Notes: generated by a model not told the origin, from the letters alone. Shown: positions 25,973-54,824, numbered from the stretch's first letter. The stretch is DNA of 64,000 nucleotides from a virus (IMGVR_UViG_3300028837_000875:24572-88571), one strand, 5' to 3'. Numbers and translations are program-made.

Positions 25973-27022
25973 ATGGTTAAGTTGAATGCAGCATTGATTG
26001 ATGAAGTCAATGAGCTTTTTGAAAGAGGCGTCATCATTGACTTGGATATTTCCTGGTGGTCAGGACAGGCGAAATTGAGAGCAGAAGATTTGGGCATCCC
26101 GAAAGATGACATCAATCTTGATTTATTCTCGCTCGGTAGGAAGCGGTTCATATCTAAGAATTGGATTGGCCGCTTTCGCAAGTATGAGCAGAAGGGACGC
26201 GCCCTTGTTGACGAATATTCTTTCAGATTCAAGAGAGGTGCAAATTCATTTGTCCCGCTCGATGCTCTTCCGGCAATGCTTGAGAGATTGAATGACTGCA
26301 AAGAGAATTTCCTCAAGGTCGTCCAAGGCTTTGCTGAGCAGTATCCAATGATAAAGAGAAAGATGATTGTGGCCTGGGGCGAAGAGGTTCCGAAAATATA
26401 CAAGCGTCTGAAATCTTTCGGAGCAAAGGTCCCGAGTGTAGAAACATTCGAGAAACGTTTCATGGAAGCAGTCAAGAACTGGTATCCGAAGGACCCAACT
26501 ATTTTCTTCAGATACACTTGGTCGTTTCATGAACTGACTTTGCCTCGGCAGTTCAAAGAGAAAGAAGTCAAGCTGAAAAGAAAGCTCAAGAAAGCGGACC
26601 TTGAAAGAGCAAAGCAAAGAGCATTGATTCAGAAATATAATGATGGCTTGCAGAATCAAGTCAGCGATTTTCTTGAGTCAGTTGTTCGCCAGCTAAGAAG
26701 CTCAACTGTTGAGCTTGCAGAAAGAGTACGCAAGCAGATAACAGACGGAAGCGTTACTGATAACAGACTTGATAGGCTCCGTGAGTTCATCGACAAATTC
26801 ACGAAGCTCAACTTTATGAATGACCGCGAGGTTGAAGTTTCTCTTCAGGACCTTAAGAAAAATCTTGAGCATACAGCAGAGGAATACAAATCTAATGAGG
26901 AGCTTGAGTCTGCTCTTCGCGGTTCGCTCGGAAAAGTAATCAAGATTGCATCGAAGAATGGCGCGGCTGTTCTTGCTTCTGCTTTCAGCAGGAAGCGCAA
27001 AGTCGTCCGTCGCAAAAAGTAA
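25973..27022 (+). CDS. DUF3150-like protein
   Basis: LDISWWSGQAKLRAEDLG...SLGRKRFI N-terminal pattern recalled for DUF3150. Confidence 0.6.
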   Translation: MVKLNAALIDEVNELFERGVIIDLDISWWSGQAKLRAEDLGIPKDDINLDLFSLGRKRFISKNWIGRFRKYEQKGRALVDEYSFRFKRGANSFVPLDALPAMLERLNDCKENFLKVVQGFAEQYPMIKRKMIVAWGEEVPKIYKRLKSFGAKVPSVETFEKRFMEAVKNWYPKDPTIFFRYTWSFHELTLPRQFKEKEVKLKRKLKKADLERAKQRALIQKYNDGLQNQVSDFLESVVRQLRSSTVELAERVRKQITDGSVTDNRLDRLREFIDKFTKLNFMNDREVEVSLQDLKKNLEHTAEEYKSNEELESALRGSLGKVIKIASKNGAAVLASAFSRKRKVVRRKK

Positions 27023-27045
27023 TAAGAATTGAAAGGAGAATAGAG

Positions 27046-28593
27046 ATGGGATTTAAGACAGAAATTACCAGCCACATAGCAGCTGGCTACTCGATTCTAT
27101 ATGTGCAGAGCTATGAAGAACTCAGAGCACGCATCGTCCTTCGCGACGTTGCTGAAAAGCTCGAAAAGAAATTCTATCTTTGGTCGTCAACCATCGGCCT
27201 TTGCGCTGTAGAAGGCGACGAGCTTACAAAGATAGAAGAGACGCAAAGCCCAGAAGAATTGCTGAGTCATCTTTTCGAGAGCTTCACTGAAGAGATGGCA
27301 GTTATCGTGCTTTGCGATTTCCACGAGTTCATGGACGACCCAATGGCAAAGAGAGTCATTCGTGAACTTGGCTCTCGCTTCAAAGAGAAAGGAAACAACT
27401 TAATTTTTCTCTCGCCAATTATGAAGCTTCCTCAGGAGTTGAAGAAAGACGTGACGCTCGTTGAGTTTGACTTGCCAAACAAGGAAGAGCTTGCGAAAGT
27501 TGTTGAGGAAGTTGGCGAAGAAAACGAAGTTGAAATAAATAATGGACAGCTTGATAAAGTTCTTGAAGCTGTTCTTGGTTTGACTACGATAGAAGCGGAA
27601 AACGCTCTTGCTCTTTCAGTGTACAACCATAATGAATTCTCTCCTGCTGAGCTAATGAAAACCAAAGCAGCAACAATCAAGAAGTCAGGAATACTCGAGT
27701 ACTTCGAGTCTGATTTCACATTGGAAGATGTTGGCGGCTTTCCAGTGCTCAAGGAATGGCTGAGACTCAGAGAGCTTGCATTCACAAAGGAAGCAAGAGA
27801 ATACGGAATAGACCCGCCGAAAGGTGCGTTGCTTCTTGGCGTACCAGGCTGCGGCAAAACGCTGTTAGCGCGTGCGGTTGCCAATGCCTGGGGTATGCCA
27901 TTGCTCAAGCTCGACCTTGGCCGTGTATTCGGTTCGCTGGTAGGTCAGTCAGAAGAAAACATGAGAGCAGCGATTCAACTTGCGGAAGCAGTAGCCCCTT
28001 GCATTCTCTTTGTAGACGAAATCGAGAAAGGACTTGCAGGAGCCGGAGGCGGTGGCAAGCATGATTCAGGAGTCACGGATAGAGTGTTCGGCACATGGCT
28101 GTCCTGGATGCAAGATAAGAAGTCTCAAGTATTCGTCATTGCTACAGCGAATAATATTGAGGCTCTTCCTGCACCGCTGCTCAGAAAAGGAAGATTCGAT
28201 GAAATGTTTTTCGTCGACCTTCCAACAGAGGAAGAAAGAAAAGAGATATTCAATATTCATCTGAGCAAGCGCAACCGCAAGCCGAAAAACTTTGACTTAA
28301 ACGAGCTTGTCAGACAGACGGATAATTTCACTGGCTCTGAAATTGAGGAAGCAGTCAAGTCTGGGCTGTTCCATTCTTTCTCGGAAAATCGAGAGCTTGA
28401 GACAAAGGATATTGTTCGAGTCATTAGAGGAACGGTACCGCTAAGCAAAACAATGTCACTTCAGCTTGATGCTATTCGCAAGTGGGCTAAGGACAGAACG
28501 GTTAACGTCTCTTGCTCTGGTTCCGAAAAGAAGCTCTTGAAGAAAAAAGTTATTCGCAAAATCAAAGGCCGCGGTAACAGCTCACTCAATTAA
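27046..28593 (+). CDS. Ycf46-type AAA+ ATPase
   Basis: Degenerate N-terminal AAA (YVQSYEE.R, LCDFHEF); GVPGCGKT, FVDEIEK, LLRKGRFDE, PLSKTM...IRKWA. Confidence 0.85.
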   Translation: MGFKTEITSHIAAGYSILYVQSYEELRARIVLRDVAEKLEKKFYLWSSTIGLCAVEGDELTKIEETQSPEELLSHLFESFTEEMAVIVLCDFHEFMDDPMAKRVIRELGSRFKEKGNNLIFLSPIMKLPQELKKDVTLVEFDLPNKEELAKVVEEVGEENEVEINNGQLDKVLEAVLGLTTIEAENALALSVYNHNEFSPAELMKTKAATIKKSGILEYFESDFTLEDVGGFPVLKEWLRLRELAFTKEAREYGIDPPKGALLLGVPGCGKTLLARAVANAWGMPLLKLDLGRVFGSLVGQSEENMRAAIQLAEAVAPCILFVDEIEKGLAGAGGGGKHDSGVTDRVFGTWLSWMQDKKSQVFVIATANNIEALPAPLLRKGRFDEMFFVDLPTEEERKEIFNIHLSKRNRKPKNFDLNELVRQTDNFTGSEIEEAVKSGLFHSFSENRELETKDIVRVIRGTVPLSKTMSLQLDAIRKWAKDRTVNVSCSGSEKKLLKKKVIRKIKGRGNSSLN

Positions 28594-28616
28594 GATAATA
28601 GAAAGAGAGGTGACAA

Positions 28617-29012
28617 ATGTCACATTGGTCAACAGTTGAAACTGAATTCACAAATGAGCAAGGATTGATTGATGCTCTTAAGGAGATGCATCCAGAACAT
28701 GAAGTAGTCAAAGGTGGCAACGTGCGCGGCTACCAAGGGACGCAGAAAGCTGATATCGTCCTGAAGGGAAAGAACATGACGCGCAGTTCTGGATTTGATA
28801 TCGGATTCAAGAAGAATGCCAATGGAATGTACTCAGAAATTTCCGATTGGTATGGACTTGATTGGCTTGGAGATAAGTCAACGTTCCAAGATAGATTGAA
28901 ACAGAGCTATGCCAAGGCAGTCGTCAAAAGGCGTGCGAAGAAATTCGGCTGGACCATCAAAGAAAAGCAGCAAGAAGATGGAACAGTCAAACTCTCTCTG
29001 ACAAAATTCTAA
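28617..29012 (+). CDS. DUF1257 (Ycf35-like) protein
   Basis: MSHWSTVETEF...VRGYQG..ADIV...DIGF...LKQSYA. Confidence 0.75.
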   Translation: MSHWSTVETEFTNEQGLIDALKEMHPEHEVVKGGNVRGYQGTQKADIVLKGKNMTRSSGFDIGFKKNANGMYSEISDWYGLDWLGDKSTFQDRLKQSYAKAVVKRRAKKFGWTIKEKQQEDGTVKLSLTKF

Positions 29013-29027
29013 GAAAGGAAGTGAGCT

Positions 29028-29219
29028 GTGAGAATAAGAAAAGAAATCATCGTCACGATAGGAACAAAAGGCGAGACAAAGATTGAAGCCAAAGGTTTCA
29101 AAAACCGAGAGTGCTTGAGAGCGACTCAGCCGTTTGAGGAAGCTCTCGGTAAAATCTCCAACAGAAAAATGAAGAGACCAGTTGAGACTCAGAAGGAGAC
29201 GCAGAGCCTTGGAAACTAA
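29028..29219 (+). CDS. DUF2997 protein
   Basis: EIIVTIGTKGETKIEAKGFKNRECLRATQPFEEALG. Confidence 0.75.
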   Translation: MRIRKEIIVTIGTKGETKIEAKGFKNRECLRATQPFEEALGKISNRKMKRPVETQKETQSLGN

Positions 29220-29379
29220 AATAGAAATCATCATTGAATCAGACGGCAAAATTAAATCTTGGTGGTCACCAGAGTTCGAGGAACTCGTATCAGAAGTGGC
29301 TACTGAAAAAATAGAGAATAGAGAAGGGGGTCCCCAGCCAATCGGGGACCTGCCCTTCCATCCTGAATTTTGCGGATGA
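29182..29379 (+). CDS. Small protein ending in FCG (likely start TTG near 29209)
   Basis: Overlaps the DUF2997 stop; IEIIIESDGKI motif. Confidence 0.45.
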   Translation: MRLRRRRRALETKIEIIIESDGKIKSWWSPEFEELVSEVATEKIENREGGPQPIGDLPFHPEFCG

Positions 29380-29498
29380 AAGCTGGATATAGATAAATGA
29401 AGCTTCAAAAGCATTCAAGACACCGCCTCATACCCTGTAGGAGGCCGTCTAACGAAGCACCTAATGGTTCTATATGCTGGCTTTCAGGGAGGGAATAG

Positions 29499-29897
29499 AT
29501 GTCTCATTATTCAGAAGTAGATACGGCGTTCAGAGATAGAGACTGTCTCGTTGAATCTCTGCAAGAGATGGGTTATCAAGTAGAGATTCACGAAGGTGAA
29601 GGCTCTAATCTTTTTGGTTATCAAGGAGACAAGCGAGAGCAGAAAGCAAACGTAATTGTTAGGCGTCAATTTGTTGGACGCTCTTCAAATGATTTGGGCT
29701 GGAAGTGGAACGCGAATAGCGGATGCTTCACTCAGATTATTTCTGAGTTCGACCAATACACAAGCAAGCTTGACGAAGGCAAGCTAAAACAAATGTATGC
29801 TGAGAAGAAAGTGACTAAGAAAGCACGTAAGCTTGGTTACAGAATCAAGCGCAATGTTGAGGACGGAGCTGTTCAGCTTACGTTGGTGAAATACTAA
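29499..29897 (+). CDS. Second DUF1257 (Ycf35-like) protein
   Basis: MSHYSEVDTAFRDRDCLVESL...LFGYQG...SNDLGW...LKQMYA. Confidence 0.75.
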   Translation: MSHYSEVDTAFRDRDCLVESLQEMGYQVEIHEGEGSNLFGYQGDKREQKANVIVRRQFVGRSSNDLGWKWNANSGCFTQIISEFDQYTSKLDEGKLKQMYAEKKVTKKARKLGYRIKRNVEDGAVQLTLVKY

Positions 29898-31765: not shown

Positions 31766-31788
31766 CAACCATCTCTCTATTCTCTCGG

Positions 31789-31815
31789 GGAAGCTCTGCG
31801 GAGCTTCCTTTTTTT
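31789..31815 (+). terminator. Rho-independent terminator
   Basis: GGAAGCTC-TGCG-GAGCTTCC followed by T7. Confidence 0.85.
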
Positions 31816-31821
31816 ATGTTT

Positions 31822-31843
31822 AGTCAATGCTACTCGGATAGAT
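31822..31843 (+). promoter_or_regulatory. Putative phage promoter motif AGTCAAnnnTACTCGGATAGAT (copy 2)
   Basis: Matches 16517-16538. Confidence 0.55.
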
Positions 31844-31879: not shown

Positions 31880-33187
31880 TTGATGAAGGACAATCTGGTT
31901 ATCGGTGGAGGCATATCAGGCCTCATTTTTTGCTATTACAATCCTGAGTTTTATTTGATTACAGATTCTCTTGGAGGCTTGCTCAAACAAGAGGGTAAAT
32001 TTGGAGTAATGACTTTATGGGATACTCCAGAAACTCGAAAGCTCTTAAAAGATTTAGATATTGAAGTCAAGCCGTACAAGGCAGAGATTAGATATTTCTT
32101 CAATGGTAAAATTTATGAAGTGGCTCCTGACGTTTTGCGTCGTGAATACATTCAAAAAAAGATGGGGCAGCTTGCACACAAAATTGACTTTGCAGATTTG
32201 GCTTTGTCTACTGACGAGACGAATTATATTCCTGCTCTCAAAGTTGACTTTGATGTGCTCATGGAAAAGTTGCTGCACGAAGTTGAGAGCCGAAAGAATT
32301 ATATGATAGCTACAATTTCAGAAATTCGAGATGATTCAATTACTCTTTATGATATGAAGAGTCCTTCAAGAATAATGAAATATAAAACGCTTGTCTCTAC
32401 TATCCCAGCATTTCTATTTTGGTTGATGTGGAAAGGACGAGAGTGCAGAGAAGTTTGTGTTCCAGGAGAATTTGCTTTCAGTCCAACTACTACAGTTTCT
32501 ATGAAAGCTCCTCATAAAAATTTGATTTCACTCTTTGATGAAATGAACGGAATGATTCCAGCGTATATCTATTATCTTGATAACTCAAGATTTCATAGAT
32601 TCTCGCACAGCTCTCAAGGCTGTTACGCTTTTCAGTTTGCAGGAGAGATTTCAAAGGAAGAGATTGCAATATATCTTGAAGTAGATGAATCTGATTTAGA
32701 ATATCGAGTCGAGAAGATAGGGCAGTTCGTTACGCACAAGGGTAACATTCCTCCACGCAATATTATGTTTCTTGGAAGGCATGCGCAATGGGATTATAAA
32801 GTTAAGGTCCAGGACATTGTGCGTGTCTCTCGATTCTCTAAGTTCATGCTTGCTGATATGAGGAGCAGGCAATCAAGATTCAATAAGAACTTTATGGACT
32901 TCAATTCGCTGAGCTTTGAAGATAGACAGCGATTGACTGAGAAGTGGATTCTGTATGTGCAGGCAGAGTTGACCGAACTCTTGGACGAAACAAACTGGAA
33001 GTTGCATCGGCCTGGAAAGGAGATTGAAAAGAGCAAGATATTAAATGAGTGGATTGATTCTTTGAAGTTTTTATTAGGTATTGCAGATATTTGGGGCTTT
33101 GACAATGCGGAGATATTCAAGGCGTTCCACGATAAGAGCGACTTTGTTGAGAAACGTTTTCAGGAGGAAGAGAAGAATGGGAAATGA
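31880..33187 (+). CDS. FAD-dependent oxidoreductase fused to all-alpha dimeric dUTPase/NTP-pyrophosphatase
   Basis: VIGGGISG Rossmann motif and LGRHAQW; C-terminal AELTELLDETNWK...NEWIDSLKF...AFHDKS. Confidence 0.75.
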   Translation: MMKDNLVIGGGISGLIFCYYNPEFYLITDSLGGLLKQEGKFGVMTLWDTPETRKLLKDLDIEVKPYKAEIRYFFNGKIYEVAPDVLRREYIQKKMGQLAHKIDFADLALSTDETNYIPALKVDFDVLMEKLLHEVESRKNYMIATISEIRDDSITLYDMKSPSRIMKYKTLVSTIPAFLFWLMWKGRECREVCVPGEFAFSPTTTVSMKAPHKNLISLFDEMNGMIPAYIYYLDNSRFHRFSHSSQGCYAFQFAGEISKEEIAIYLEVDESDLEYRVEKIGQFVTHKGNIPPRNIMFLGRHAQWDYKVKVQDIVRVSRFSKFMLADMRSRQSRFNKNFMDFNSLSFEDRQRLTEKWILYVQAELTELLDETNWKLHRPGKEIEKSKILNEWIDSLKFLLGIADIWGFDNAEIFKAFHDKSDFVEKRFQEEEKNGK

Positions 33188-34112
33188 GTTTGAGTCAATC
33201 ACAGAGTTCCATGGCAAGAAAATGTTGAATGCATTTCATAAAGGAGAGAAGCCGAAAACAGATTTCAAAGATTCTTCGGATTCTGTTAGAGTTGCTTTGC
33301 TTAATTATTCTCCAAGTGTATACGAGGACATGTTCTGGTTCATCATGGGCTCGTATGGAAACGAAGCCAACAAGAGAAAGCAGTTCACTCCTTCAGAGGA
33401 AGATATTGAAAAGGTTATTGAAGCTTGCTTGAATCGTGAAGCAATGCCGTTAGCTCTTGAAATTCCGAAGTTTACTTTCGTAATATGGGGCATTGATAGA
33501 ATCATCACTCACCAGATAGTCAGAAACAGAATTGGTGTTGTGTATTCTCAACACTGTACGGGAGACAATGACATACGTCATGTAGATTTTCTCCTGCCAC
33601 ATCGAATGATAGGAGCAAACACAGAGGACGAAGTAGATTTCAGGATGCGAGTGAAGGAATGGCATAGAGTTGGCAAGGCACTCTACGCAGAAGGCATTGA
33701 CGTCCATGGATATTCCATGCAGGACATGAGGCACATGATGCCGCAGGACGTGGATACGTACGTAATGATGAGTTGTAATTACATGATGCTTCAGAACTTT
33801 GTCGGCCGGCGTCTCTGCTCAAATGAGACGATGCAGATTCAGCGAGTAGCAGAATTGATTAAAGAGGAAGTGACAAAGGTCTATCCGTTTCTTGGTCGTC
33901 ATCTAATGAGCAATTGCGATAGAGCAAAGAGATGTCACTTCAAGAAGAATGGAACAATCTTTGGAGGTTCTGTTTATTATCCTTGCGGCAAGTATCCATG
34001 GAGCAGCAAAGAAGCTCCTGACCCGGAGGCATTCATTCACCCTATGACTTCAGAAGAAATCAGACAGGTAGAGAATCCGGCTTACAGACATTTAGAATCT
34101 GAGCAGGATTAG
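33177..34112 (+). CDS. thyX: ThyX-like flavin-dependent enzyme with non-canonical motifs
   Basis: FTFVIWGIDRIITHQIVRNRIG..YSQHC; QDMRHMMP; FVGRRLC. Confidence 0.75.
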   Translation: MGNEFESITEFHGKKMLNAFHKGEKPKTDFKDSSDSVRVALLNYSPSVYEDMFWFIMGSYGNEANKRKQFTPSEEDIEKVIEACLNREAMPLALEIPKFTFVIWGIDRIITHQIVRNRIGVVYSQHCTGDNDIRHVDFLLPHRMIGANTEDEVDFRMRVKEWHRVGKALYAEGIDVHGYSMQDMRHMMPQDVDTYVMMSCNYMMLQNFVGRRLCSNETMQIQRVAELIKEEVTKVYPFLGRHLMSNCDRAKRCHFKKNGTIFGGSVYYPCGKYPWSSKEAPDPEAFIHPMTSEEIRQVENPAYRHLESEQD

Positions 34113-34144
34113 CTCTATCAGAATCAGAGCCTCAAATAGGGCAA

Positions 34145-34195
34145 GAAGCGTCCTAGGACCCTGTCTGAGGCCATTGAATAGATTATCTTAGGTAT
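34145..34195 (+). repeat. Dispersed GTCCTAGGAC element (copy 2)
   Basis: GAAGCGTCCTAGGACCCTGTCTGAGGC in an intergenic gap. Confidence 0.7.
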
Positions 34196-34264
34196 GATAT
34201 AGCTGAGGCATATAGTTCTGAAGGACAGCGTATTATCAAAAGGCTCTGATAGAGGATTCAATCC

Positions 34265-34804
34265 ATGATAATTTCAGTAGAAGGACCTGACGGATGTGGA
34301 AAGACAAGCTTTGCAAAAGAGCTTGAAAAGAAAACAGGCTTGCCAATAATCGAGTACAACTTTCAGATTGTTGGAGGCAATAGAAAAGAAGAACTTGCAT
34401 ATATTCAAATGCTTTCGTTTGTTGCCATCTCTTTTCATTTTAATTTCATCCGTGATAGGCATCTAATGTCTAATATGGTTTATGCATCTATATTTTCTGA
34501 TGATTGTTATTGGCGTAAATATCTTGAGCTAATAGAAAGGACTCAAATACTCATTGCATATATTCACGTTCCAGCAGAAGAATTGATTAAGAGAATCAAG
34601 CAGCGTGAAGCAAGTGATGGAATTAAAGAGCCTGAAGATATACTTCTAAACTTGTTGGTGGCACATGAAAGTTTTGAAACTGCTTATTTTGAAATCAAGA
34701 AAAGATTTCCAGAGAAGATAATCAAACTTGATGGCTTGCTGACAATTGAGGATATGGTCAGTGATTATTTCAAGAAAAGACTCCAGCAAGAAAGGCAAAC
34801 ATGA
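34265..34804 (+). CDS. Thymidylate/dNMP kinase
   Basis: IISVEGPDGCGKTS P-loop; IRDR..SNMVY. Confidence 0.8.
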   Translation: MIISVEGPDGCGKTSFAKELEKKTGLPIIEYNFQIVGGNRKEELAYIQMLSFVAISFHFNFIRDRHLMSNMVYASIFSDDCYWRKYLELIERTQILIAYIHVPAEELIKRIKQREASDGIKEPEDILLNLLVAHESFETAYFEIKKRFPEKIIKLDGLLTIEDMVSDYFKKRLQQERQT

Positions 34805-35856
34805 AACCTTATACTGAAAAGAAATTCGAGAAAATCTTTCCTTGGTTTGAAGCAATCAATCTTGATTTGCTGAAGGCACCAGTTGCAGTAAGACTTTTGG
34901 TGACAGATAAGTGCGCTTGCAAATGTCACATGTGTACGCACTGGAAGATGAAAAAGTTTTACTCGCTCGATTATAAAACGTTCAGTTCAATTGTGCTTGC
35001 TTGTCAGAACAATGGAACTCAATCTATGTTTCTTTCAGGAGGAGATGTCTTTTCTTGGGAGTGCTGGGAAAGATTTTTGAAAGATGAAGAAATTACAATT
35101 GCTGCTCTGACTGTTACGCCATTGATAATTCCAAAAAGCTTTGACAAAGATTTGCTCAAGAGACTCAAATGGCTACGAGTTTCTTTTGATGCAATCAAGA
35201 GTGAAACGTTCAAAAAAATCAGAGGCGTAAACGCGTTGTCATCTGTAAAGCATGACTTGTCTTATATCCTCGCTAACAAATTGGTAGAGGATATCGGCAT
35301 GACAACTGTTTTGCAGAAGGATAATTTTTCAGAGATTATAGAGATGGGTGAATACTTCGTTAACTTGGGCATCAAGAGATGGATAGTTCAGCCAGTCAAT
35401 TATAATCCAAGGCTCAGCTTAACTCCTGAAGCAATACAAATGCTTGGCTATCAGTTGAGCAAGAAGTTTGGTGAAGCCATACCAACAAACAATTTCGATG
35501 TCCTTCAAAGCGATTTCAGTCTTTGGAATTCTACTCACAATCTGCCTTGCATAATTCCGCGCATGGAAGCATTCATTGATACAAGACTCAGGGTATGGCC
35601 TTGCTGCAATCTTGCTCAAGATGCGCACGGAGATGAAGAAAGAGCAGAGAGATTGAAAATGGGTACGTTTATACAAGGCGCAAGTGCCGGTGAATATTTC
35701 CTTGAGCTTTGGCGTGAACGTAGAAATCTGCTCGATAAATTTACTGACTTCAAAGACATTCATCCTTTATGCAAGCAGACATGTAAGTTCAAATACTTCT
35801 ACTATAATCTTGGCTTTGATTGGTGCAGAAAAAACAGAGAAGCTATTTATATTTGA
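34801..35856 (+). CDS. Radical SAM protein with SPASM/twitch domain
   Basis: CACKCHMC (CxxxCxxC), LSGGD, VSFDA, LPC...VWPCC...CKQTC. Confidence 0.85.
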   Translation: MKPYTEKKFEKIFPWFEAINLDLLKAPVAVRLLVTDKCACKCHMCTHWKMKKFYSLDYKTFSSIVLACQNNGTQSMFLSGGDVFSWECWERFLKDEEITIAALTVTPLIIPKSFDKDLLKRLKWLRVSFDAIKSETFKKIRGVNALSSVKHDLSYILANKLVEDIGMTTVLQKDNFSEIIEMGEYFVNLGIKRWIVQPVNYNPRLSLTPEAIQMLGYQLSKKFGEAIPTNNFDVLQSDFSLWNSTHNLPCIIPRMEAFIDTRLRVWPCCNLAQDAHGDEERAERLKMGTFIQGASAGEYFLELWRERRNLLDKFTDFKDIHPLCKQTCKFKYFYYNLGFDWCRKNREAIYI

Positions 35857-35867
35857 TAGGATGTAAT

Positions 35868-36482
35868 GTGCCTCAAATTTCAGAAAGAATGCTGATTAGG
35901 AAACACCGATTTCATTTGGAGCGTTCTATTCAAGAATGTTCAGAGTGCAGCATACATAGAAACGAAGAGAATATACAATCCAAATCTATGGGTAATGGCA
36001 ATTGCTATGACCCTGATATTTTTTTCATAGGCTTAGCTCCTTCTCAGAATAGACGGCCGCTCAAGCAAGATAAGCATGGCAACAAAATTCCTCTAAGAAC
36101 ATTTGAGTATTTAGTAGGTGGAAGATTTAGAAGATTGCTCAAGAGCTTAGGACTATATGAGAGAAGCTATCTAACAAATCTACTCAAGTGCAGCACTCCT
36201 GATAATAGAAAACCAAAACACACAGAAATAAAAAATTGCTCAGTATGGTTTCACAAGGAATTCAATATGCTATCTCCCAGAGCCATTGTCCCTTTGGGCA
36301 ATGTTGCAAGACGTGCTCTCGAAAGAACGATGCAAATGACAGATGACAACAGAGGATTTTTATTTGGCGTAGAGGTAATCGTCATCAATTGCTTTCATCC
36401 GAATTATTGTTATAGCTATGGTGGAATAACTGAGGAACGTTATGCCGAGCTATTATTAAAAGTAGAGAAAGAGTTAGAGTGA
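35868..36482 (+). CDS. Uracil-DNA glycosylase family 4-like (Fe-S) protein with divergent motif A
   Basis: CSEC, FFIGLAPS, YLTNLLKC...NRKP...EIKNC, FHPNY; overlaps the dnaE start. Confidence 0.75.
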   Translation: MPQISERMLIRKHRFHLERSIQECSECSIHRNEENIQSKSMGNGNCYDPDIFFIGLAPSQNRRPLKQDKHGNKIPLRTFEYLVGGRFRRLLKSLGLYERSYLTNLLKCSTPDNRKPKHTEIKNCSVWFHKEFNMLSPRAIVPLGNVARRALERTMQMTDDNRGFLFGVEVIVINCFHPNYCYSYGGITEERYAELLLKVEKELE

Positions 36483-39400
36483 AAAGATTTCCTAAAAAGT
36501 TAGACATGACCATTCCGGAATATGAAGAGGATAAACATCTGTATACACCCATTCATGTTCATTCTTCGTATTCTCTTTTTGATTCAGTCAGCACAATCAT
36601 GGAGATTCCAGAAGTTGCCAAGAAGCTTGGAATGAAAGCTGTCTCTTTATCTGACCATGGAACAATGAGCGGTACGTTTTCTTTTGTCGAGCATTGCAAA
36701 AGTAGTGGAGTTAAACCAATTGTAGGCTGTGAGTTCTATGTCAATCCAAGAAGATTAAAAAAAGATAAAGATGCAAACAACCAACACTTGTGTTTGTTTG
36801 CAATGAACATGGAAGGATGGAAGAATCTACTCAAGATAACTTATGACGCAGTTACTAATGGATTCTACTTCAGGCCAAGAACAGATTTGGATTTTATAGC
36901 TGAGCATTCGGAAGGACTCATTTGCACTACTGCTTGCATGGCCTCGCCAATCATCAAGCCGTTTCTCGATGATAATAAAAAGCAAGCTCTAAACAACTTG
37001 AAAAAGTTGAAAGAAGTTTTTGGAGATAGGCTGTACATAGAATTTCAATTCAACGAATTGGATATTCAAAAAAAGATTGTAGACTGGCTTGAATTTATTA
37101 CCAAACGCTTTGGTCTCAAATCTTTGTATGGACTTGATTCTCATTACACGTATCCGAATGATGTGTATCTGCAAGATATTATAAAACTCAATAGAAGAAA
37201 GATGACTGTATATGATGCCAATTGGCAGGAGGCGATTTTTGATATACGTAGACTTTTTATTAAGCCGTTTCAAGTGGCTCTCGACGAACCTGAGGAACTG
37301 GGATTCAAAGTAACCAAACAACGAGTTCGGTCACTTTTAGAAACAACTAATGAGCTTGCAGGTAGAATTCATTTTGAGTTTGAATTAGGATTGCACGCAC
37401 CTGTTTATGAGCATCGTGGCAAAGCGGTAGACCAAGCCAAGTTTTTGAAGCTTCAAATTCAACGCGGCTTCTTGAAGAAAATCAAACAAGGTATGATTCC
37501 AAAAGGACAAGAGGAAGCTTATAGAAAAAGAACATGGTATGAATATGAGCAGATACTTAAATGCGGTTATCCAAATTATTTCTTAATGATTTGGGATATG
37601 GTTCGCGTTGCTGTAAGGCGTGGAATACAAAAGGGCATAGGCAGAGGCAGTGCTTCTGGTTCGCTTGTGTCTTTTGTTCTTGATATAAGCGGAGTGGACC
37701 CCATCAAACATGGCTTGCTCTTCGAGAGATTTCTTGACGTAGAAAGAAAAGACCCACCAGATATAGATTTAGACTGGGAATCAGAACGCAGAAATGAGAT
37801 TGAAGATTATCTTGTCGAGAAGTATGGAAAAGAAAAAGTAGCTCATGTTGCAACGTTCAGTTATTGGGGAACAAAGTCTGCTCTCAGTGAAGTATTCAAA
37901 ACGCTTGGAGAAGATGGAAGTCCTATCTTCGAGATGTCAAAATGGATTCGTTCTGATGAAAAAGACATTCGATATGCAAAGCATGTTGATGATGCTATTG
38001 AATGGCTGAGAAAATATTGTCCGAAAAATGAAGTGATAGATTTAGTTGATAGACAAATGGAACTGGGCGTACCGCTTGCAAAGCGGCTGGTTGATAATGT
38101 GCGTCATGTAGGTTTGCACGCCGGAGGAATTGTCGTCTCTCCTAAGCCGATATGGGAATACATTCCAGTGATTCAGCATAAAGGAAAAATTGTAACTGGT
38201 TTTCCTCAGAGTTCAGAAATACGAAGAGGAGAATGGGGAACGCTTGAGAAAATAGGATTGATAAAGATTGATAATCTTGGAGTCAATTCAGTCTCTACAA
38301 TTAAAGCAACACTTCTCTTGATAAAAGAGAGGCATGACTTAGATTTGTTTGAGCATATATGGAAAGTTGAGTTAGATGATTCTGAGGTATATCGTTTTTA
38401 TGCTGAGTGTTTTACGGAAGGTGTATTTCAAGTAGAGTCAGATAGCATAAACAATTTTATCAGAAGATTGAAGCCAAGCAATTTCAGTGACATCTGTGCT
38501 CTTATGGCTTTGTATAGACCAGGTAGTTTGCAATCAGGAGAATCAGAACGCTTTATAAAGCGCAAGGCTGGAAAAGAGAAGATTGAATATGTACATCCAA
38601 AGCTCAAGAAATATCTTGAGGATACGTATGGGTGTTTTGTTTATCAAGAGCAGCTAATGTTTATCATGCAAGAGCTGGCTGGCTTTGGAAAAGGAGAAGT
38701 TCTACGCAAGATGAAACTTCTCAAGCAAGCATATGATGTCAACAATGTAGATGTGCTTGCAATGGTAAAGCGATTGAGAGAGGAATTGATAAGGCTTTCT
38801 AACTTTACAGAAAAGCAAGCAGATGAATTAACTGAAATGATGCGCAAGTGTTATGCGTATATCTTCAACAAATCTCACGCGACTTCTTATGCGTTCTTCT
38901 CATACCAAATGATGTGGCTTAAAGTACATTATCCTATTGAGTTCTTTTGTGGATTGCTTTCTCGCACGGAGAATCAAATCACAGAATTGAAAGGTGGTGC
39001 AATCAAGTTAAAAATTAAGAAGTATATCTCCGCAGCAAAAAAGCTTGGCATCACAGTTCTTCCTCCAAAGTTTGGAGTATCTGGAAGTGAATTCAAAATT
39101 ATAGATGACAGCACAATTGTTGCTGGTACTCGCATCATAGTTGGCATCGGCAAATCAGCGGCAGAGCTTGACAAGACTGTGGATGATTCCTGCTTTGAGG
39201 ATTTTGTCTGCAATGAAAATATACAGTGGCAGAAACTCAACAAAAGTAAAGTTGAGAAGCTAATAAAAATTGGCTACTTTGATGATTCAGTAAAGACAAG
39301 AAAGAGCATCACCAAAAAACAATTAGTACATGCATGGAAGCTTTACAACGAGAGAAAGAAAAAGAAATGTGAAAGAGATACGATAGTAGAAGCAATCAAA

Positions 39401-39934
39401 GAATCAGTCAAGATAGTTGAAGGAGAATATAGCAAAGCAGAGTTGCTTGAGTTCCAGATTCAAATGTTCAGATTTTTCTTTACTGAACATCCGTTAGAAT
39501 CAAAAGACATAGTCAATCTCATTTGGAAATACAATAAGAAGCAATCTAAGAAAGCACTCAAGATACGCAAGGTCTCTGAGCTTAATTCATCTTCCGCTAA
39601 GCGTGGCACAATGATAGGTTATATCTCAAGCATAAGACGTACAGTGCCGAAGTGCGGCCCATCTAAGGGTGAGCAAATGGCAATTGTCACAATAGAAGAT
39701 AACAGAGATAAGGCAAGAGTTCTTATATGGCCTGAGTTCTATGAGATTCCAGAATATAAAAAGTTGCTGAAAGAGGGAAACGTTCTTGTGCTCAGATTGA
39801 AACGCAAGAAACAATCTGGTGAGGAAGATTCAAAAGTATATGAGCTTGCAGATATTAGCGGCAAAGCACAATTGGTGAGTGCGGTAGACTTGGGTAGAAG
39901 AATAAAGAGAAACACAAAAAGAAAGAAGGAATAA
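36479..39934 (+). CDS. dnaE: DNA polymerase III alpha subunit (family C)
   Basis: PHP HVHSSYS/SDHG, GRGSASGSLV, FERFL, PDIDLD, FNKSHA, C-terminal OB fold. Confidence 0.95.
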   Translation: MKRFPKKLDMTIPEYEEDKHLYTPIHVHSSYSLFDSVSTIMEIPEVAKKLGMKAVSLSDHGTMSGTFSFVEHCKSSGVKPIVGCEFYVNPRRLKKDKDANNQHLCLFAMNMEGWKNLLKITYDAVTNGFYFRPRTDLDFIAEHSEGLICTTACMASPIIKPFLDDNKKQALNNLKKLKEVFGDRLYIEFQFNELDIQKKIVDWLEFITKRFGLKSLYGLDSHYTYPNDVYLQDIIKLNRRKMTVYDANWQEAIFDIRRLFIKPFQVALDEPEELGFKVTKQRVRSLLETTNELAGRIHFEFELGLHAPVYEHRGKAVDQAKFLKLQIQRGFLKKIKQGMIPKGQEEAYRKRTWYEYEQILKCGYPNYFLMIWDMVRVAVRRGIQKGIGRGSASGSLVSFVLDISGVDPIKHGLLFERFLDVERKDPPDIDLDWESERRNEIEDYLVEKYGKEKVAHVATFSYWGTKSALSEVFKTLGEDGSPIFEMSKWIRSDEKDIRYAKHVDDAIEWLRKYCPKNEVIDLVDRQMELGVPLAKRLVDNVRHVGLHAGGIVVSPKPIWEYIPVIQHKGKIVTGFPQSSEIRRGEWGTLEKIGLIKIDNLGVNSVSTIKATLLLIKERHDLDLFEHIWKVELDDSEVYRFYAECFTEGVFQVESDSINNFIRRLKPSNFSDICALMALYRPGSLQSGESERFIKRKAGKEKIEYVHPKLKKYLEDTYGCFVYQEQLMFIMQELAGFGKGEVLRKMKLLKQAYDVNNVDVLAMVKRLREELIRLSNFTEKQADELTEMMRKCYAYIFNKSHATSYAFFSYQMMWLKVHYPIEFFCGLLSRTENQITELKGGAIKLKIKKYISAAKKLGITVLPPKFGVSGSEFKIIDDSTIVAGTRIIVGIGKSAAELDKTVDDSCFEDFVCNENIQWQKLNKSKVEKLIKIGYFDDSVKTRKSITKKQLVHAWKLYNERKKKKCERDTIVEAIKESVKIVEGEYSKAELLEFQIQMFRFFFTEHPLESKDIVNLIWKYNKKQSKKALKIRKVSELNSSSAKRGTMIGYISSIRRTVPKCGPSKGEQMAIVTIEDNRDKARVLIWPEFYEIPEYKKLLKEGNVLVLRLKRKKQSGEEDSKVYELADISGKAQLVSAVDLGRRIKRNTKRKKE

Positions 39935-48197: not shown

Positions 48198-48829
48198 AGA
48201 AAAAAAGAATCAAGTTGACAGACAATCCTTGCTTCATTGGCTTGGACATGTCTATTAACGGAACTGGAATTTGCATCTTCAACAATGTGCAGAATATGGT
48301 TCACGTTGAGGTTGTTGAACCAAAACTTCTTGCAAGCTCTGATGTAGCAAAATGCGTCATAGGCAGATTAAGAATTTCTGACTTCAGTAGATACAGAGAG
48401 GTAGTCAATAGAATCATTCAACTCATTAAAGCATTTCAAGTCAAGGCAGTAGTAATTGAGAATTATGCTTTTGGTATCAGGAAGTCTAAATCTCTAACAA
48501 AACTTGGTGAGCTTGGCGGGATATTAAGAAATGCCTTGATTGATATGAGTATTCCTTTTACTGAGGTTACACCTAACTCAGCAAAGAAATTCATCAGCGG
48601 CAAAGGTGTATGTCCTGAACCTCTAATGCTTCTGAAGGTTGCAAAGAAATGGAAAGAGGAATTCGATTCAGTCAAGGATAGAAGAAAGATTGATGCAGCG
48701 ATAGCATATGGCCTTGGCAGAATTGCCTGGAACATATATTCTGAGAAATCAAAAATGAGTGATTTGCTTGAGTACGAAGTTGAAGTGTTAAAGAAGATTG
48801 CGAAGGATAAAGATGCCAAGGATAATTAA
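48194..48829 (+). CDS. RuvC-like Holliday junction resolvase
   Basis: IGLDMSINGTG, VVIENYAF, LGELGG, VTPNSAKKF. Confidence 0.8.
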   Translation: MKKKRIKLTDNPCFIGLDMSINGTGICIFNNVQNMVHVEVVEPKLLASSDVAKCVIGRLRISDFSRYREVVNRIIQLIKAFQVKAVVIENYAFGIRKSKSLTKLGELGGILRNALIDMSIPFTEVTPNSAKKFISGKGVCPEPLMLLKVAKKWKEEFDSVKDRRKIDAAIAYGLGRIAWNIYSEKSKMSDLLEYEVEVLKKIAKDKDAKDN

Positions 48830-49373
48830 AGCAACTTGGGATAATCTATATCACATGTGGAAAGACTGCAAGAGATGTGACTTGCATGAAAACCGCAGTC
48901 GAGTTGTCTTTGGCAAAGGTCCAAAGAAAGCGAAAATCTTTTTGATTGGTCAGGCTCCTGGAAAGACTGAAGATAAACTTGGAAAACCATTTGTAGGTTT
49001 GATGGGTAAACTGCTTAGAGAAATGATGGAAGCAATAGGAATGAGTCCTGATAGAATGTACATTTCTAATTCTGCGGCTTGTTATCCTCTTGCGGATGCA
49101 ATGCCCACAGTTCATCAAGTAAAAATGTGCTATCCAAGATTGAAGATGGAAATTGAGTTAGTAAAACCAAAATTCATTATCTATTGCGGAATGAGAGCCG
49201 CTACAATTTCTGGCTTGTGTGAAGAGTACGCAAGATTCTTTGAACAGTTCAAGACTTTATTTATGAATCATCCGGGTTCTATCAGAAGGGACTCGGGAAG
49301 AAAAGAAGATATAAGAAAGCAACTTCAATTTATTAAGGATGCTATCATAAGAGATGGAGGGAAAGTAGCGTGA
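48813..49373 (+). CDS. Uracil-DNA glycosylase family 4
   Basis: CKRCDLH, VFGKG, IGQAPG..ED..GKPFVG, YISN...C, HPG. Confidence 0.85.
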   Translation: MPRIIKATWDNLYHMWKDCKRCDLHENRSRVVFGKGPKKAKIFLIGQAPGKTEDKLGKPFVGLMGKLLREMMEAIGMSPDRMYISNSAACYPLADAMPTVHQVKMCYPRLKMEIELVKPKFIIYCGMRAATISGLCEEYARFFEQFKTLFMNHPGSIRRDSGRKEDIRKQLQFIKDAIIRDGGKVA

Positions 49374-52300: not shown

Positions 52301-52630
52301 GGTGGCTGTATGCAGTCTCAACTTCAAGCTATTGGAAGATTGATTTCAAAATCTTGGCAGAGCGGTTTGGGATTAGAAACAATAGTCAAGCAGTTGACAG
52401 GAATTACTTGTCATCAGTCTAAGCCTTCGTTTGATAAAAAACAATCGTTTCTATCTTGTGCGGATGCAATTGCAAAAATTATTCAAGAACATTTTATTGG
52501 AGAGGAAGGAGAGGAAGAGCAGTTTGATGAAAAGCCAAAGAGTAATATCTGCTCGTATTGCGGAGGGCCGATGATACATGAAGGACATTGTTCTACATGC
52601 ACGGCTTGTTTCAAAAGTTTATGTGGATAG
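49370..52630 (+). CDS. nrdJ: Class II (B12-dependent) ribonucleotide reductase with intein and C-terminal TSCPD/Zn domain
   Basis: VLKERYL, FMPNTPTL, GGGTG, QQGGMRRGA, NP|CGEQ, TIAPTGSIS, SKTINLP, KGITVYRD. Confidence 0.92.
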   Translation: MIKFPKLGYKITENALAVLKERYLFRNPEGEIIENPSEMFWRVAKYVASVEKTKAKRIKWTEIFYDLMASGDFMPNTPTLLNSGRENLSVLAGCFVIEVNDTIYGGLDSIFGSIELMALIHKMGGGTGCSFHKLRPHGARVTSTGHVASGPVSFMRNFDEAIEAIQQGGMRRGAHMSIMKVDHPDIEEFIECKNKLNQRTKVVLDRITKALHLDLDGEFRTIIKEAIIRSQLTNMNISISLTAEFKQALKKGTSYDIVSPQTGKVVRQENAGRIFNLMAQNAWKSGEPGFIDLERINADNTCPHLGEIYSTNPCVVGDTPVSTVNEGPQIFEDLVGREVLVYAYDNKSSEIKVSMMRNIRRTGKNIPIMKLVIDKGTANGILSQDYNGRFEEHKLTPEHKLYLRNGLEVMIKNLVPGDRLFPHQIKASGRARVVIRNGLGKYKSRSHYVAEYKFGRKLRNDEVVHHKDGNGSNDNPENLEIETDSYHKSHHCRDSNLSGIRSLKGSKNPNFNHIKKETLIYYGCLCVSKYGTVRNGSVWNEFRKEVREIELPGRGTIERLFGSYREFQEACILSSVLIENHKVVSVEYCGKADVFNGTVDKYHNYFIADRKARSGNLVTGILSKNCGEQPLRPFESCTLGSIAVSRMVEKKNGQLKFDYVKFKERIYQAIRFLDNVLDAQKYPVSEIKEESQRTRKIGLGVMGFADLLIKFGIPYGSQDCIDLIHVMMSKFEIQTRRASIDLAREKGKFPAWKKSTYGKQGLPMRNAMRTTIAPTGSISGIAGVSFGIEPLYGLSFTRRILDGKTFVEVSEVAKEALKRKHCWSERAEQTIREDGTLNNCEWIPPDIRMAFKTAHEINPEEHLIVQAAFQKYIDNAVSKTINLPNSATVEDVNNIFRRAIELKCKGITVYRDASREEQVLTTGKAKFQSIREVRKRPRKLNGTTYEKQVGECGKLFVIVNSDKDGYPFEIFIEAGKSGGCMQSQLQAIGRLISKSWQSGLGLETIVKQLTGITCHQSKPSFDKKQSFLSCADAIAKIIQEHFIGEEGEEEQFDEKPKSNICSYCGGPMIHEGHCSTCTACFKSLCG
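50309..51244 (+). mobile_element. Intein (312 aa) with HNH homing endonuclease
   Basis: Interrupts NP|CGE; starts CVVGDT, block B LTPEH, ends VFNGTV..YHNY...ILSKN; internal VHHKDGNGSNDNPENL. Confidence 0.9.
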
Positions 52631-52678: not shown

Positions 52679-52730
52679 GAAGCGTCCTAGGACCTCGCCT
52701 AAGGCAATCCGATGGGGCTTGCCGAGGTAA
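52679..52730 (+). repeat. Dispersed GTCCTAGGAC element (copy 3)
   Basis: GAAGCGTCCTAGGACCTCGCCTAAGGC after the RNR gene. Confidence 0.7.
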
Positions 52731-54746: not shown

Positions 54747-54806
54747 CTGTCTCTTATACACATCTCCGAGCCCACGAGACGCTACGCTATCTCGTATGCC
54801 GTCTTC
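54747..54806 (+). other. Illumina Nextera adapter read-through (artefact)
   Basis: CTGTCTCTTATACACATCT-CCGAGCCCACGAGAC, 8-nt index GCTACGCT, then ATCTCGTATGCCGTCTTC. Confidence 0.97.
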
Positions 54807-54824
54807 GAAAAGACGAAGCAATAA

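What the first reader, a model, noticed from the sequence alone, without database searches (positions are those of the whole stretch)
31880..39934. Candidate undescribed DNA base-modification pathway coupled to the phage polymerase
Seen: behind a terminator and a conserved promoter-like motif sits a contiguous, mostly overlapping gene run. It encodes an FAD oxidoreductase fused to an all-alpha dNTP pyrophosphatase, a ThyX-fold enzyme with altered catalytic motifs, a dNMP kinase, a radical SAM/SPASM enzyme, a UDG-4-like Fe-S protein and DnaE. Established: phages that replace a base typically combine a thymidylate-synthase-like modifier, a kinase for the modified dNMP, a pyrophosphatase removing the canonical dNTP, and their own polymerase (the logic of T4 hmC and SPO1 hmU). 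Inference: this is the same logic built from different chemistry (two flavoenzymes plus radical SAM), giving a non-standard pyrimidine. I do not recognise this combination as a characterised pathway.
Basis: partly seen in the sequence, partly recalled or inferred. Interest (0 to 1): 0.88.

Follow-up and report, generated by a model that had tools for sequence, protein, structure and literature searches.

The report
Phage flavoprotein–ThyX pyrimidine-modification cassette
An uncultured marine-sediment phage carries, just ahead of its DNA polymerase gene, an enzyme set built around a sugar-mutase-like flavoprotein and an unusual ThyX; the same pair occurs in many phages, including Pseudomonas therapy phages whose DNA was recently found to hold a modified thymine made by unknown genes, so it probably makes a non-standard DNA base, though this is unproven.

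Summary
Behind a terminator (31787-31810) and a twice-occurring promoter-like motif sits a + strand run: a UGM-fold flavoprotein fused to an all-alpha NTP pyrophosphatase, a divergent ThyX, a YorR-like dNMP kinase, a radical SAM enzyme, an Fe-S UDG-like protein and DnaE.

The core is the flavoprotein plus ThyX pair. It co-occurs in 18 of 22 uncultivated phage loci (the other four are cut by contig ends), in 4 Patescibacteria genome islands, and, as remote homologues, in PB1-like cultured phages. The kinase, radical SAM and UDG-like genes recur only in some lineages.

Three of the four cellular carriers also have a canonical ThyA or ThyX, and this phage has two extra ThyA-like genes, so a plain dTMP role is unlikely to be the whole story. 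Pbunavirus DNA carries a hypermodified thymidine whose genes are unnamed (Yee et al. 2025).

My reading is a pre-replicative pyrimidine-modification cassette of unknown chemistry (about 0.5). The main rival is ordinary dTTP supply and uracil exclusion (about 0.3).

UDG-like is better read as a polymerase accessory, and the ThyX changes are milder than claimed. Other agents of this scan reached the Pbunavirus link on other DNA.

The parts
31787..31810 (+). Intrinsic terminator closing the upstream gene (10-bp stem, loop of 4, T run)
   Evidence: sequence
31822..31843 (+). Promoter-like motif AGTCAA-N3-TACTCGGATAGAT, about 40 nt before the ORF1 start. The second copy is at 16517-16538, before the helicase gene
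   Evidence: 2 exact matches against 0.06 expected
31883..32842 (+). ORF1 N-terminal domain (residues 1 to about 320): UGM-fold, GR2-type flavoprotein of a phage-dominated family without a Pfam model
32843..33187 (+). ORF1 C-terminal domain: all-alpha NTP pyrophosphatase (dUTPase_2 / MazG-like) with the ExxE...ExxD acidic motif
33177..34112 (+). Divergent ThyX (311 aa). It reads RNR for RHR, Cys127 for the motif Ser, and has a 5-residue insertion and a C-terminal extension. Cys214, Cys247, Cys253 and Cys/Asp270 are conserved
34145..34160 (+). Conserved intergenic motif GAAGCGTCCTAGGACC inside the only gap of the gene run. The second copy is at 52679
34265..34804 (+). YorR-like P-loop dNMP kinase (thymidylate-kinase-like)
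34801..35856 (+). Radical SAM enzyme (CxxxCxxC at residues 38-45) with a Cys-rich, SPASM/twitch-like tail. It belongs to a rare family found beside the pair in L007, L012 and L022
35820..36482 (+). Fe-S UDG-superfamily protein with motif A GLAPS (family-5-like), motif B HPN and 4 Cys. An alternative ATG start lies at 35889
36479..39934 (+). DnaE-type replicative polymerase (PHP, pol III alpha core, fingers, HhH)
48798..49373 (+). Second, more family-4-like UDG (GQAPG, CxxC, HPG). Related context, not part of the operon

Best explanation
This is an operon in the replication module of an uncultivated tailed phage from marine sediment. Its core is a conserved two-protein unit: a UDP-galactopyranose-mutase-fold flavoprotein, here fused to an all-alpha NTP pyrophosphatase, and a distinct ThyX subfamily with a Cys-rich C-terminal extension.

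Proposed route; every step is inferred and none is shown:
1. The pyrophosphatase domain turns a canonical pyrimidine dNTP into the dNMP.
2. The ThyX-type enzyme and the flavoprotein convert that dNMP into a non-canonical 5-substituted pyrimidine dNMP by flavin chemistry.
3. The YorR-like kinase phosphorylates the product.
4. The phage DnaE incorporates it into DNA.

The radical SAM enzyme would be a lineage-specific tailoring step. The UDG-like Fe-S protein would be an accessory of the polymerase rather than a biosynthetic enzyme.

What is shown: gene content, folds, motif states, the co-occurrence pattern, and homology to the cassette of PB1-like phages.
For: 1. Co-occurrence. Relatives of ORF1 were fetched from 22 viral loci, and 18 also hold a ThyX-like gene within a few kb. 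The other four are cut by contig ends. All 4 loci from cellular genomes hold the pair.

2. One-sided dependence. 389 GenBank phage records have a ThyX match, but none matches ORF1 by tblastn.

3. The ThyX is an extra copy.
- Three of the four Patescibacteria MAGs with the cassette also have a canonical ThyA or ThyX. In one MAG the canonical gene lies on the same contig, 53 kb away.
- Only 2 of 31 related genomes carry the cassette type.
- This phage also has an Asn-type and an Asp-type ThyA paralogue and a MazG.
- ThyA-like genes also lie in several of the related loci that hold the pair.

4. A distinct ThyX clade.
- It shares RxR with the His lost, and the conserved Cys214, Cys247, Cys253 and Cys/Asp270.
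- In a quick tree, the ThyX of PB1-like phages nests inside the ORF1-associated group, apart from canonical cellular ThyX.

5. Link to cultured phages.
- Pbunavirus phage 109, XcP1, WTB and TropicalSun each carry a protein of 312-333 aa near their ThyX. It matches the 168-sequence ORF1 family profile at E 4e-6 to 1e-8 with Z set to 1e6, and shares all the family motifs.
- Their ThyX matches the family profile at hhalign probability 99.7.
- An NTP-PPase, a HAD/PNKP phosphatase and DnaE lie in the same block.

6. A known modification without genes. Pbunavirus F8 and 14-1 virion DNA holds hypermodified thymidine: nucleoside masses 362 and 390, about a quarter of T, in TG context. The authors name no genes and note that these phages lack known modification genes (bioRxiv 10.1101/2025.03.31.646159). 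No later paper found assigns genes.

7. YorR-like kinases sit in other phage pyrimidine-hypermodification clusters (PMC13326640).
Against: - No chemistry has been measured for any member of the cassette.
- dUTPase-like plus ThyX plus thymidylate-kinase-like plus UDG is also the textbook set for dTTP supply and uracil exclusion.
- The ThyX keeps every nucleotide-binding Arg, so it may still make dTMP.
- The link between the cassette and the Pbunavirus base is circumstantial. That base is context-specific (TG), which points to a step on DNA rather than on free nucleotides.
- This phage has no glycosyltransferase, SDR or HAD gene that would fit a sugar adduct.
- The two ThyA-like genes could be the true modifiers, leaving ThyX as the ordinary synthase.
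- FAD binding by ORF1 is inferred from fold and the GxGxxG motif only.
Confidence: 0.5

Rival explanations
1. Ordinary dTTP supply and uracil exclusion. The pyrophosphatase domain acts as a dUTPase that yields dUMP. The ThyX makes dTMP and the kinase makes dTDP. The UDG-like protein removes uracil from DNA. The flavoprotein merely helps ThyX, for example by handling flavin redox in an anoxic host. The radical SAM gene is unrelated cargo.
For: - Pfam and PHROG assignments fit this set.
- The invariant residues E95, R116, R118, R185 and R212 match the dUMP and FAD contacts of solved ThyX.
- The phage also encodes RNR, a second UDG and other nucleotide-supply genes.
- Pbunavirus DNA keeps about three quarters of its T as plain thymidine, which needs a dTMP source.
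Against: - Three of the four cellular carriers, and this phage, already have other thymidylate-synthase-type genes.
- Canonical ThyX in 389 phage records needs no such flavoprotein.
- GR2-type flavoproteins of this fold have no NAD(P)H domain, so a reductase role has no precedent in the matches found.
- The score against the ThyX equivalog model is 44.7 bits, against a cut-off of 87.9.
- Radical SAM genes of the same family sit beside the pair in four lineages.
Confidence: 0.3
2. The cassette makes a nucleotide-derived small molecule that is not incorporated into the phage genome, for example a modified nucleotide used as a signal, an inhibitor or a counter-defence agent. Alternatively it acts on DNA after replication: the UDG-like protein flips the base out and the flavoenzymes modify it in place.
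For: - The cassette sits as a sporadic island in Patescibacteria chromosomes among cellular genes, together with a NUDIX hydrolase.
- In L012-L014 an HhH-GPD glycosylase domain is fused to a ThyA-like domain next to the pair.
- UDG-like genes recur beside the pair.
- The TG context of the Pbunavirus base implies recognition at the DNA level.
- The radical SAM enzyme's nearest curated families act on nucleotides (MoaA, viperin), but at weak scores.
Against: - The ThyX fold keeps the arginines that bind the 5'-phosphate of a mononucleotide.
- The dNMP kinase and the NTP pyrophosphatase make most sense for free nucleotides headed to a polymerase.
- In phages the cassette always lies in the replication module next to the polymerase.
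Confidence: 0.15
3. The adjacency is a mosaic of unrelated replication-module genes with no shared pathway.
For: - Phage replication modules are gene-dense and mosaic.
- The kinase, radical SAM and UDG-like genes are each present in only some loci.
Against: - The flavoprotein and ThyX pair persists across loci whose proteins are only 20-35% identical and whose polymerases differ (DnaE, PolB, PolA).
- The flavoprotein is fused to, or directly followed by, the pyrophosphatase.
Confidence: 0.05

Closest known systems
Flavoprotein - ThyX - HAD/PNKP - DnaE block of PB1-like phages (Pbunavirus phage 109 genes 091/085/083/081-082; also XcP1, Burkholderia WTB, Erwinia TropicalSun), and the TG-context hypermodified thymidine of Pbunavirus F8 and 14-1 (Yee et al. 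2025)
   Same: - Homologous flavoprotein, found by profile match with all family motifs shared.
- ThyX of the same Cys-motif clade.
- An all-alpha NTP-PPase in the block and DnaE downstream.
   Different: - Here the NTP-PPase is fused to the flavoprotein.
- A dNMP kinase, a radical SAM enzyme and a UDG-like gene are inserted.
- No HAD/PNKP or SDR gene is present.
- Sequence identity is very low.
- The genes behind the Pbunavirus base are themselves unassigned.
T4 hmC and SPO1 hmU base-replacement logic (dNTPase, thymidylate-synthase-type modifier, dNMP kinase, own polymerase)
   Same: The same four roles can be assigned to the genes present.
   Different: - The modifier is ThyX-fold, not ThyA-fold.
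- An extra flavoprotein and a radical SAM enzyme are present.
- No product is known.
Thymidine hypermodification clusters of M6, ViI, PaMx11 and SP10 (Lee et al. 2018, 2021: 5-HMUDK, aGPT-Pplase, rSAM isomerase, PLP decarboxylase, FAD lyase)
   Same: They use a radical SAM enzyme, an FAD enzyme and a P-loop kinase around a DnaE-type polymerase.
   Different: - No aGPT-Pplase was seen in any ORF scanned.
- The radical SAM enzyme has no tblastn match in any cultured phage, M6 included.
- The kinase matches Bacillus-phage YorR-type kinases, not the M6 or ViI DNA kinases.
Glycosylated 5-hydroxycytosine pathways (RB69 gp48, DLP3 gp80, HY126 AfhB; RL38J1 with a true UGM; NAR 2026, PMC13326640)
   Same: - Flavin-dependent members of a thymidylate-synthase family.
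- A YorR-like nucleotide kinase, a dCTPase, and in RL38J1 a UGM.
   Different: - Those synthases are ThyA-fold.
- No glycosyltransferase is present here.
ThyX homologues with other roles: PolB UMP/dUMP methylase of polyoxin biosynthesis (4p5b) and the ThyX of C. glutamicum that is not required for thymidylate synthesis (3ge9, 3fnn)
   Different: No sequence-level kinship beyond the fold. Neither has the Cys-rich extension or a partner flavoprotein.

Membership tests
ThyX / flavin-dependent thymidylate synthase | Thy1 fold and Pfam PF02511 above the gathering score | tested here: met
ThyX / flavin-dependent thymidylate synthase | ThyX signature RHR-x7-S-x-RY and the equivalog score (TIGR02170) | tested here: not met
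   The motif reads RNRIGVVYSQHC..(5-residue insertion)..RH. TIGR02170 scores 44.7 bits against a cut-off of 87.9.
ThyX / flavin-dependent thymidylate synthase | Arginines that bind the dUMP phosphate and the uracil (T. maritima R78, R80, R147, R174) | tested here: met
   R116, R118, R185 and R212 are invariant in 24 family sequences.
ThyX / flavin-dependent thymidylate synthase | Makes dTMP from dUMP, CH2-THF and NADPH | not testable with these tools
   Needs an enzyme assay or complementation.
UDP-galactopyranose mutase (Glf/UGM) | UGM-type three-domain flavoprotein fold | tested here: met
UDP-galactopyranose mutase (Glf/UGM) | Sequence membership (Pfam GLF PF03275) | tested here: not met
   Only 1 of 19 family members hits, at E 0.021. 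The window's protein has no hit.
UDP-galactopyranose mutase (Glf/UGM) | UDP-Galp to UDP-Galf mutase activity; FAD bound | not testable with these tools
   Only GxGxxG and the fold are seen.
All-alpha NTP pyrophosphatase (dimeric dUTPase / MazG-like) | Pfam dUTPase_2 above the cut-off, and the acidic metal motif | tested here: met
   27.9 bits against 22.9, but covering only profile positions 4-89 of 162. 11 of 19 family members hit. The ExxE...ExxD motif is in the family consensus.
dTMP kinase (Tmk) | Equivalog score (TIGR00041) | tested here: not met
   34.9 bits against 83.25. Pfam Thymidylate_kin scores 33.8 against 27. The best solved relative is YorR 2axp, E 3e-7.
Radical SAM / SPASM | CxxxCxxC cluster motif and the Pfam Radical_SAM model | tested here: inconclusive
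   The motif CACKCHMC is present. The window's protein scores 20.5 bits against 29.5. Five of the six family proteins found carry PF04055. The L012 homologue hits Radical_SAM at E 1.1e-10 and SPASM at E 8.3e-9.
Family 4 uracil-DNA glycosylase | Motif A GE(A/G)PG and the TIGR00758 score | tested here: not met
   Motif A is GLAPS, like GLAPA of family 5 (PMC4787834). TIGR00758 scores 65.2 against 125.3. Superfamily Pfam UDG scores 57.6 against 24.3, which is met.
Thymidine hypermodification system of Lee et al. (5-HMUDK + aGPT-Pplase) | Presence of an aGPT-Pplase amino-acid:DNA transferase and a 5-hmdU DNA kinase | tested here: not met
   No such Pfam family appeared among the ORFs scanned. The kinase and the radical SAM enzyme have no tblastn match to M6, ViI or PaMx11.
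PB1-like flavoprotein-ThyX cassette | Homologous flavoprotein beside a ThyX of the same clade, upstream of the polymerase | tested here: met
PB1-like flavoprotein-ThyX cassette | HAD/PNKP-type phosphatase in the block | tested here: not met
   No HAD family appeared in the contig's ORFs. It is present in related loci as a dUTPase_2-HAD fusion.

The most novel reading that the evidence does not exclude
The ThyX-type enzyme no longer transfers a folate-borne methylene. Together with the UGM-fold flavoprotein it would use flavin N5-iminium chemistry, which UGM uses on sugars and ThyX on CH2, to join a larger carbon unit to C5 of dUMP before replication. The radical SAM enzyme would tailor the product.

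Arithmetic on the published Pbunavirus masses is compatible with this, and only that: 362 = dU 228 + pentose 150 - O 16, and 390 = dU 228 + hexose 180 - H2O 18. The same sums fit an O-linked adduct on 5-hmdU. The conserved Cys3-Cys/Asp site in the ThyX extension would then be a metal or Fe-S site that feeds electrons.
Probability: 0.15. Interest if true: 0.92.

Novelty: new variant of a known kind. Interest (0 to 1): 0.72.

Why it matters
Phage DNA hypermodifications decide whether restriction, CRISPR and modification-dependent nucleases can stop a phage, including therapy phages.

Pbunavirus, a main therapeutic family, was shown in 2025 to carry a modified thymine with no known genes. This window shows that the best candidate gene pair belongs to a large family:
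- The profile search found 2297 cluster representatives at E <= 0.001 and 229 at E <= 1e-30.
- The family is spread over many uncultivated phage lineages and some ultra-small bacteria.
- Its accessory enzymes vary: kinase, radical SAM, SDR, HAD, methyltransferase, ThyA fusions.

If the pair is the modifier, it would give ThyX-fold and UGM-fold flavoenzymes a new role. It would also point to a family of related but different DNA bases, and it makes the question testable in cultivable phages.

Tried and rejected
- Near-identity search of the 8.2-kb region against GenBank phages: no match.
- tblastn against GenBank phages: no match for ORF1, the radical SAM enzyme or the Asp-type ThyA.
- PDB sequence search: nothing meaningful for ORF1. 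The radical SAM enzyme gave only insignificant hits to PqqE and viperin.
- hhalign of the 19-sequence ORF1 alignment against the Pbunavirus 'polyamine oxidase' gave only probability 27. The 168-sequence profile was needed to see the homology.
- Rfam scan of 31-41 kb: nothing.
- Fold of the 152-nt gap: z -1.66, not significant.
- Sigma-70 promoter scan: no more sites than in shuffles.
- Sequencing runs: only contigs of marine-sediment DNA runs hold the stretch, and no RNA holder is listed. Read laying was therefore not used, since contigs cannot show base modification.
- Model coordinates are not readable in the script box, so I could not measure whether the four conserved Cys/Asp residues of the ThyX extension meet in space.
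- The careful tree search did not finish. Only the quick tree with SH-aLRT support is reported, and several cellular rows sit on long branches.
- The idea that ORF1 is a PaMx11 gp47-type lyase was dropped. That family did not appear among the structural matches shown, and the best matches are UGM.


Full report
**Setting**

The window is bases 24572-88571 of an 88,571-bp IMG/VR virus contig, estimated 78% complete. The stretch is held by marine-sediment metagenome runs. All large genes lie on the + strand. The contig encodes a tape-measure protein and other tail genes, portal, terminase and capsid, and a full replication set. That set comprises two helicases, primase, DnaE, RecA/UvsX-like, SbcCD-like, FEN and an RNR with an intein. 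It is a tailed phage with no close relative in GenBank.

**The observation**

Behind the terminator at 31787-31810 and a motif AGTCAA-N3-TACTCGGATAGAT lie six genes whose ends mostly overlap. The motif occurs exactly twice in the window, at 16517 and 31822, against 0.06 expected. One 152-nt gap, 34113-34264, holds a second recurring motif.

- **Kinase.** A P-loop, thymidylate-kinase-like protein whose best solved relative is the SPbeta prophage protein YorR.
- **Radical SAM.** It has CxxxCxxC and a Cys-rich tail, and only weak matches to MoaA, viperin and SPASM maturases.
- **ORF5.** A UDG-superfamily protein with four Cys. Its motif A, GLAPS, looks like family 5 (GLAPA) rather than family 4 (GE[A/G]PG).
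- **DnaE.** Ordinary in its domain make-up.

**What is conserved**

Word-based searches found only 6 close ThyX-like proteins, 6 radical SAM proteins and 19 ORF1 relatives. These shared the same few contigs.

A profile of the ORF1 family found 2297 cluster representatives at E <= 0.001 and 229 at E <= 1e-30 among 1.84 billion. Most are stand-alone proteins of about 300 aa. The ESM Atlas neighbours are unannotated viral clusters.

Fetching 22 viral loci with ORF1 relatives showed a ThyX-like gene within a few kb in 18 of them. The other four are cut by contig ends. The pair always sits in the replication module, next to DnaE, PolB or PolA.

In some lineages ORF1 is split into the flavoprotein and a dUTPase_2-HAD fusion. 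Other neighbours vary by lineage:
- dNMP kinases;
- radical SAM enzymes (the window's family in L007, L012 and L022; another rSAM-SPASM in L016 and L018);
- UDG-like proteins, free in L020-L023 and fused to the DnaE C-terminus in L012, L013, L016, L018 and L028;
- NDP-sugar epimerase-type SDRs, a SAM methyltransferase and an HD 5'-nucleotidase;
- ThyA-like proteins, one of them fused to an HhH-GPD glycosylase domain.

The conserved unit is therefore the flavoprotein (with its pyrophosphatase) plus the ThyX. The rest is accessory.

**Is the ThyX just a thymidylate synthase?**

Aligned to M. tuberculosis ThyX, RHR reads RNR. The motif Ser is Cys, five residues are inserted before the next Arg, and the folate-stacking His of the EH motif is Ile.

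Across 24 family members E95, R116, R118, Y170, R185 and R212 are invariant, so a nucleotide 5'-phosphate and pyrimidine are still bound. The His of RHR is lost in 22 of the 24; only L016 and L018 keep it. Cys214, Cys247, Cys253 and Cys/Asp270 in and before a C-terminal extension are conserved, which suggests a metal site absent from canonical ThyX.

Four Patescibacteria MAG loci carry a six-gene cassette among cellular genes: ORF1-like, ThyX-like, kinase, an unknown protein, UDG-like and NUDIX. Three of these four genomes also have a canonical ThyA or ThyX, in one case 53 kb away on the same contig. Only 2 of 31 related genomes have the cassette type.

This phage itself has two divergent ThyA paralogues elsewhere on the contig, plus a MazG and a DUF488-N3a protein. 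One has Asn at the dUMP-selecting position (PPNLA). The other has Asp (SFDLA), the state of dCMP-modifying enzymes.

The ThyX-type gene is thus an extra, sporadically distributed copy. That argues against a purely housekeeping role but does not exclude dTMP synthesis.

**The link to cultured phages**

tblastn with the ThyX-like protein reached the ThyX of PB1-like phages at about 24% identity. In Pseudomonas phage 109 (Pbunavirus) that ThyX has RTR and the same Cys motif, and matches the family profile at hhalign probability 99.7.

In phage 109 a 333-aa 'polyamine oxidase' lies 1.2 kb upstream; a HAD/PNKP-like protein and DnaE follow, with an all-alpha NTP-PPase in the same block. XcP1, Burkholderia WTB and Erwinia TropicalSun each carry a matching 312-324-aa protein just upstream of their ThyX; a PNKP-type gene follows in WTB and TropicalSun, an SDR in XcP1 and TropicalSun, and DnaE in WTB and TropicalSun.

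A 168-sequence profile of the ORF1 family hits the 312-333-aa protein of all four phages at E 4e-6 to 1e-8 with Z set to 1e6. The alignment shares every family motif: GxGxxGL, KK(M/V), (S/N)T(I/M/A)P, Y..Y(F/Y)......R(A/F)S and GR(F/H)AxW....D.

In a quick tree, the PB1-like ThyX group sits inside the ORF1-associated ThyX radiation and apart from canonical cellular ThyX. The tree carries SH-aLRT support only, the careful search did not finish, and some cellular rows have long branches.

Yee et al. (bioRxiv 10.1101/2025.03.31.646159) report the following for Pbunavirus F8 and 14-1 virion DNA. It resists enzymes whose sites contain TG. It holds novel thymidine-derived nucleosides of mass 362 and 390, which replace about a quarter of T. 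The authors read these as a tetrose sugar-alcohol derivative and a cyclised aldopentose derivative. They note that these phages lack known modification genes. I found no later paper that assigns genes. The window's operon is therefore a distant relative of the best, still unproven, genetic candidate for that base.

**Comparison with known systems**

The T4/SPO1 logic fits the roles: dNTPase, modifier, kinase, own polymerase.

The Lee et al. thymidine-hypermodification families are not present. No aGPT-Pplase was found, and the radical SAM enzyme and the kinase have no match to M6, ViI or PaMx11.

The glycosylated 5-hydroxycytosine pathways (PMC13326640) show that thymidylate-synthase-family enzymes can be flavin-dependent hydroxylases. 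They also show that YorR-like kinases sit in such clusters, and that RL38J1 uses a true UGM. ORF1 is only UGM-like, and this phage has no glycosyltransferase, SDR or HAD gene.

**Verdict**

A pre-replicative pyrimidine-modification cassette is the best reading (about 0.5). Ordinary dTTP supply and uracil exclusion is the main rival (about 0.3).

Other agents of this scan reached the same Pbunavirus link on other DNA. That is not independent evidence; I tested the homology here myself.

Noticed in passing
window 54747-54810: An Illumina Nextera adapter read-through is assembled into the contig: CTGTCTCTTATACACATCTCCGAGCCCACGAGAC, then an index, then ATCTCGTATGCCGTCTTC. This is an assembly artefact and a possible false join. 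It lies 15 kb downstream of the finding and does not affect it.
   Followed up: partly
L004:3799-4551 and L004:5281-5991 (same contig, 18-21 kb before the window): Two divergent ThyA paralogues. One has Asp (SFDLA) and one Asn (PPNLA) at the substrate-selecting position. A MazG lies at L004:6967-7518 and a DUF488-N3a protein at L004:1665-2057. Together they look like a second pyrimidine-modification cluster.
   Followed up: partly
window 34145-34160 and 52679-52694: The exact 16-nt motif GAAGCGTCCTAGGACC lies in two intergenic regions, with a partial copy near 15790. The 152-nt gap 34113-34264 is closed by a 13-bp stem, but its fold is not better than shuffles (z -1.66) and it has no Rfam match.
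   Followed up: partly
window 48798-49373: A second UDG-superfamily gene with family-4-like motifs (GQAPG, CxxC, HPG), just before the RNR gene.
   Followed up: partly
L012:12275-13168 (also L013, L014): A fusion of an HhH-GPD DNA-glycosylase domain to a ThyA-like domain, directly downstream of the ThyX-like gene in three uncultivated phages.
   Followed up: no
L029, L031, L032 (Patescibacteria MAGs) and L009, L030: A six-gene cassette (ORF1-like, ThyX-like, kinase, unknown 182-aa protein, UDG-like, NUDIX) sits among cellular genes in ultra-small bacteria and is sporadic among their relatives.
   Followed up: partly
window 49370-52630: The ribonucleotide reductase large subunit has a TSCPD tail and is interrupted by an intein with an HNH endonuclease.
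   Followed up: no
window 25973-29897: A module of DUF3150, an AAA ATPase (phrog_8638) and two DUF1257 proteins lies upstream of the operon and is conserved in the relative L007.
   Followed up: no
contig ORFs outside the finding: Pfam hits to a PvuRts1I-like N-terminal nuclease domain, MT-A70, SWIB and DHH/DHHA1. PvuRts1I is a 5-hmC-dependent restriction enzyme family. The ORFs carrying these hits were not mapped.
   Followed up: no
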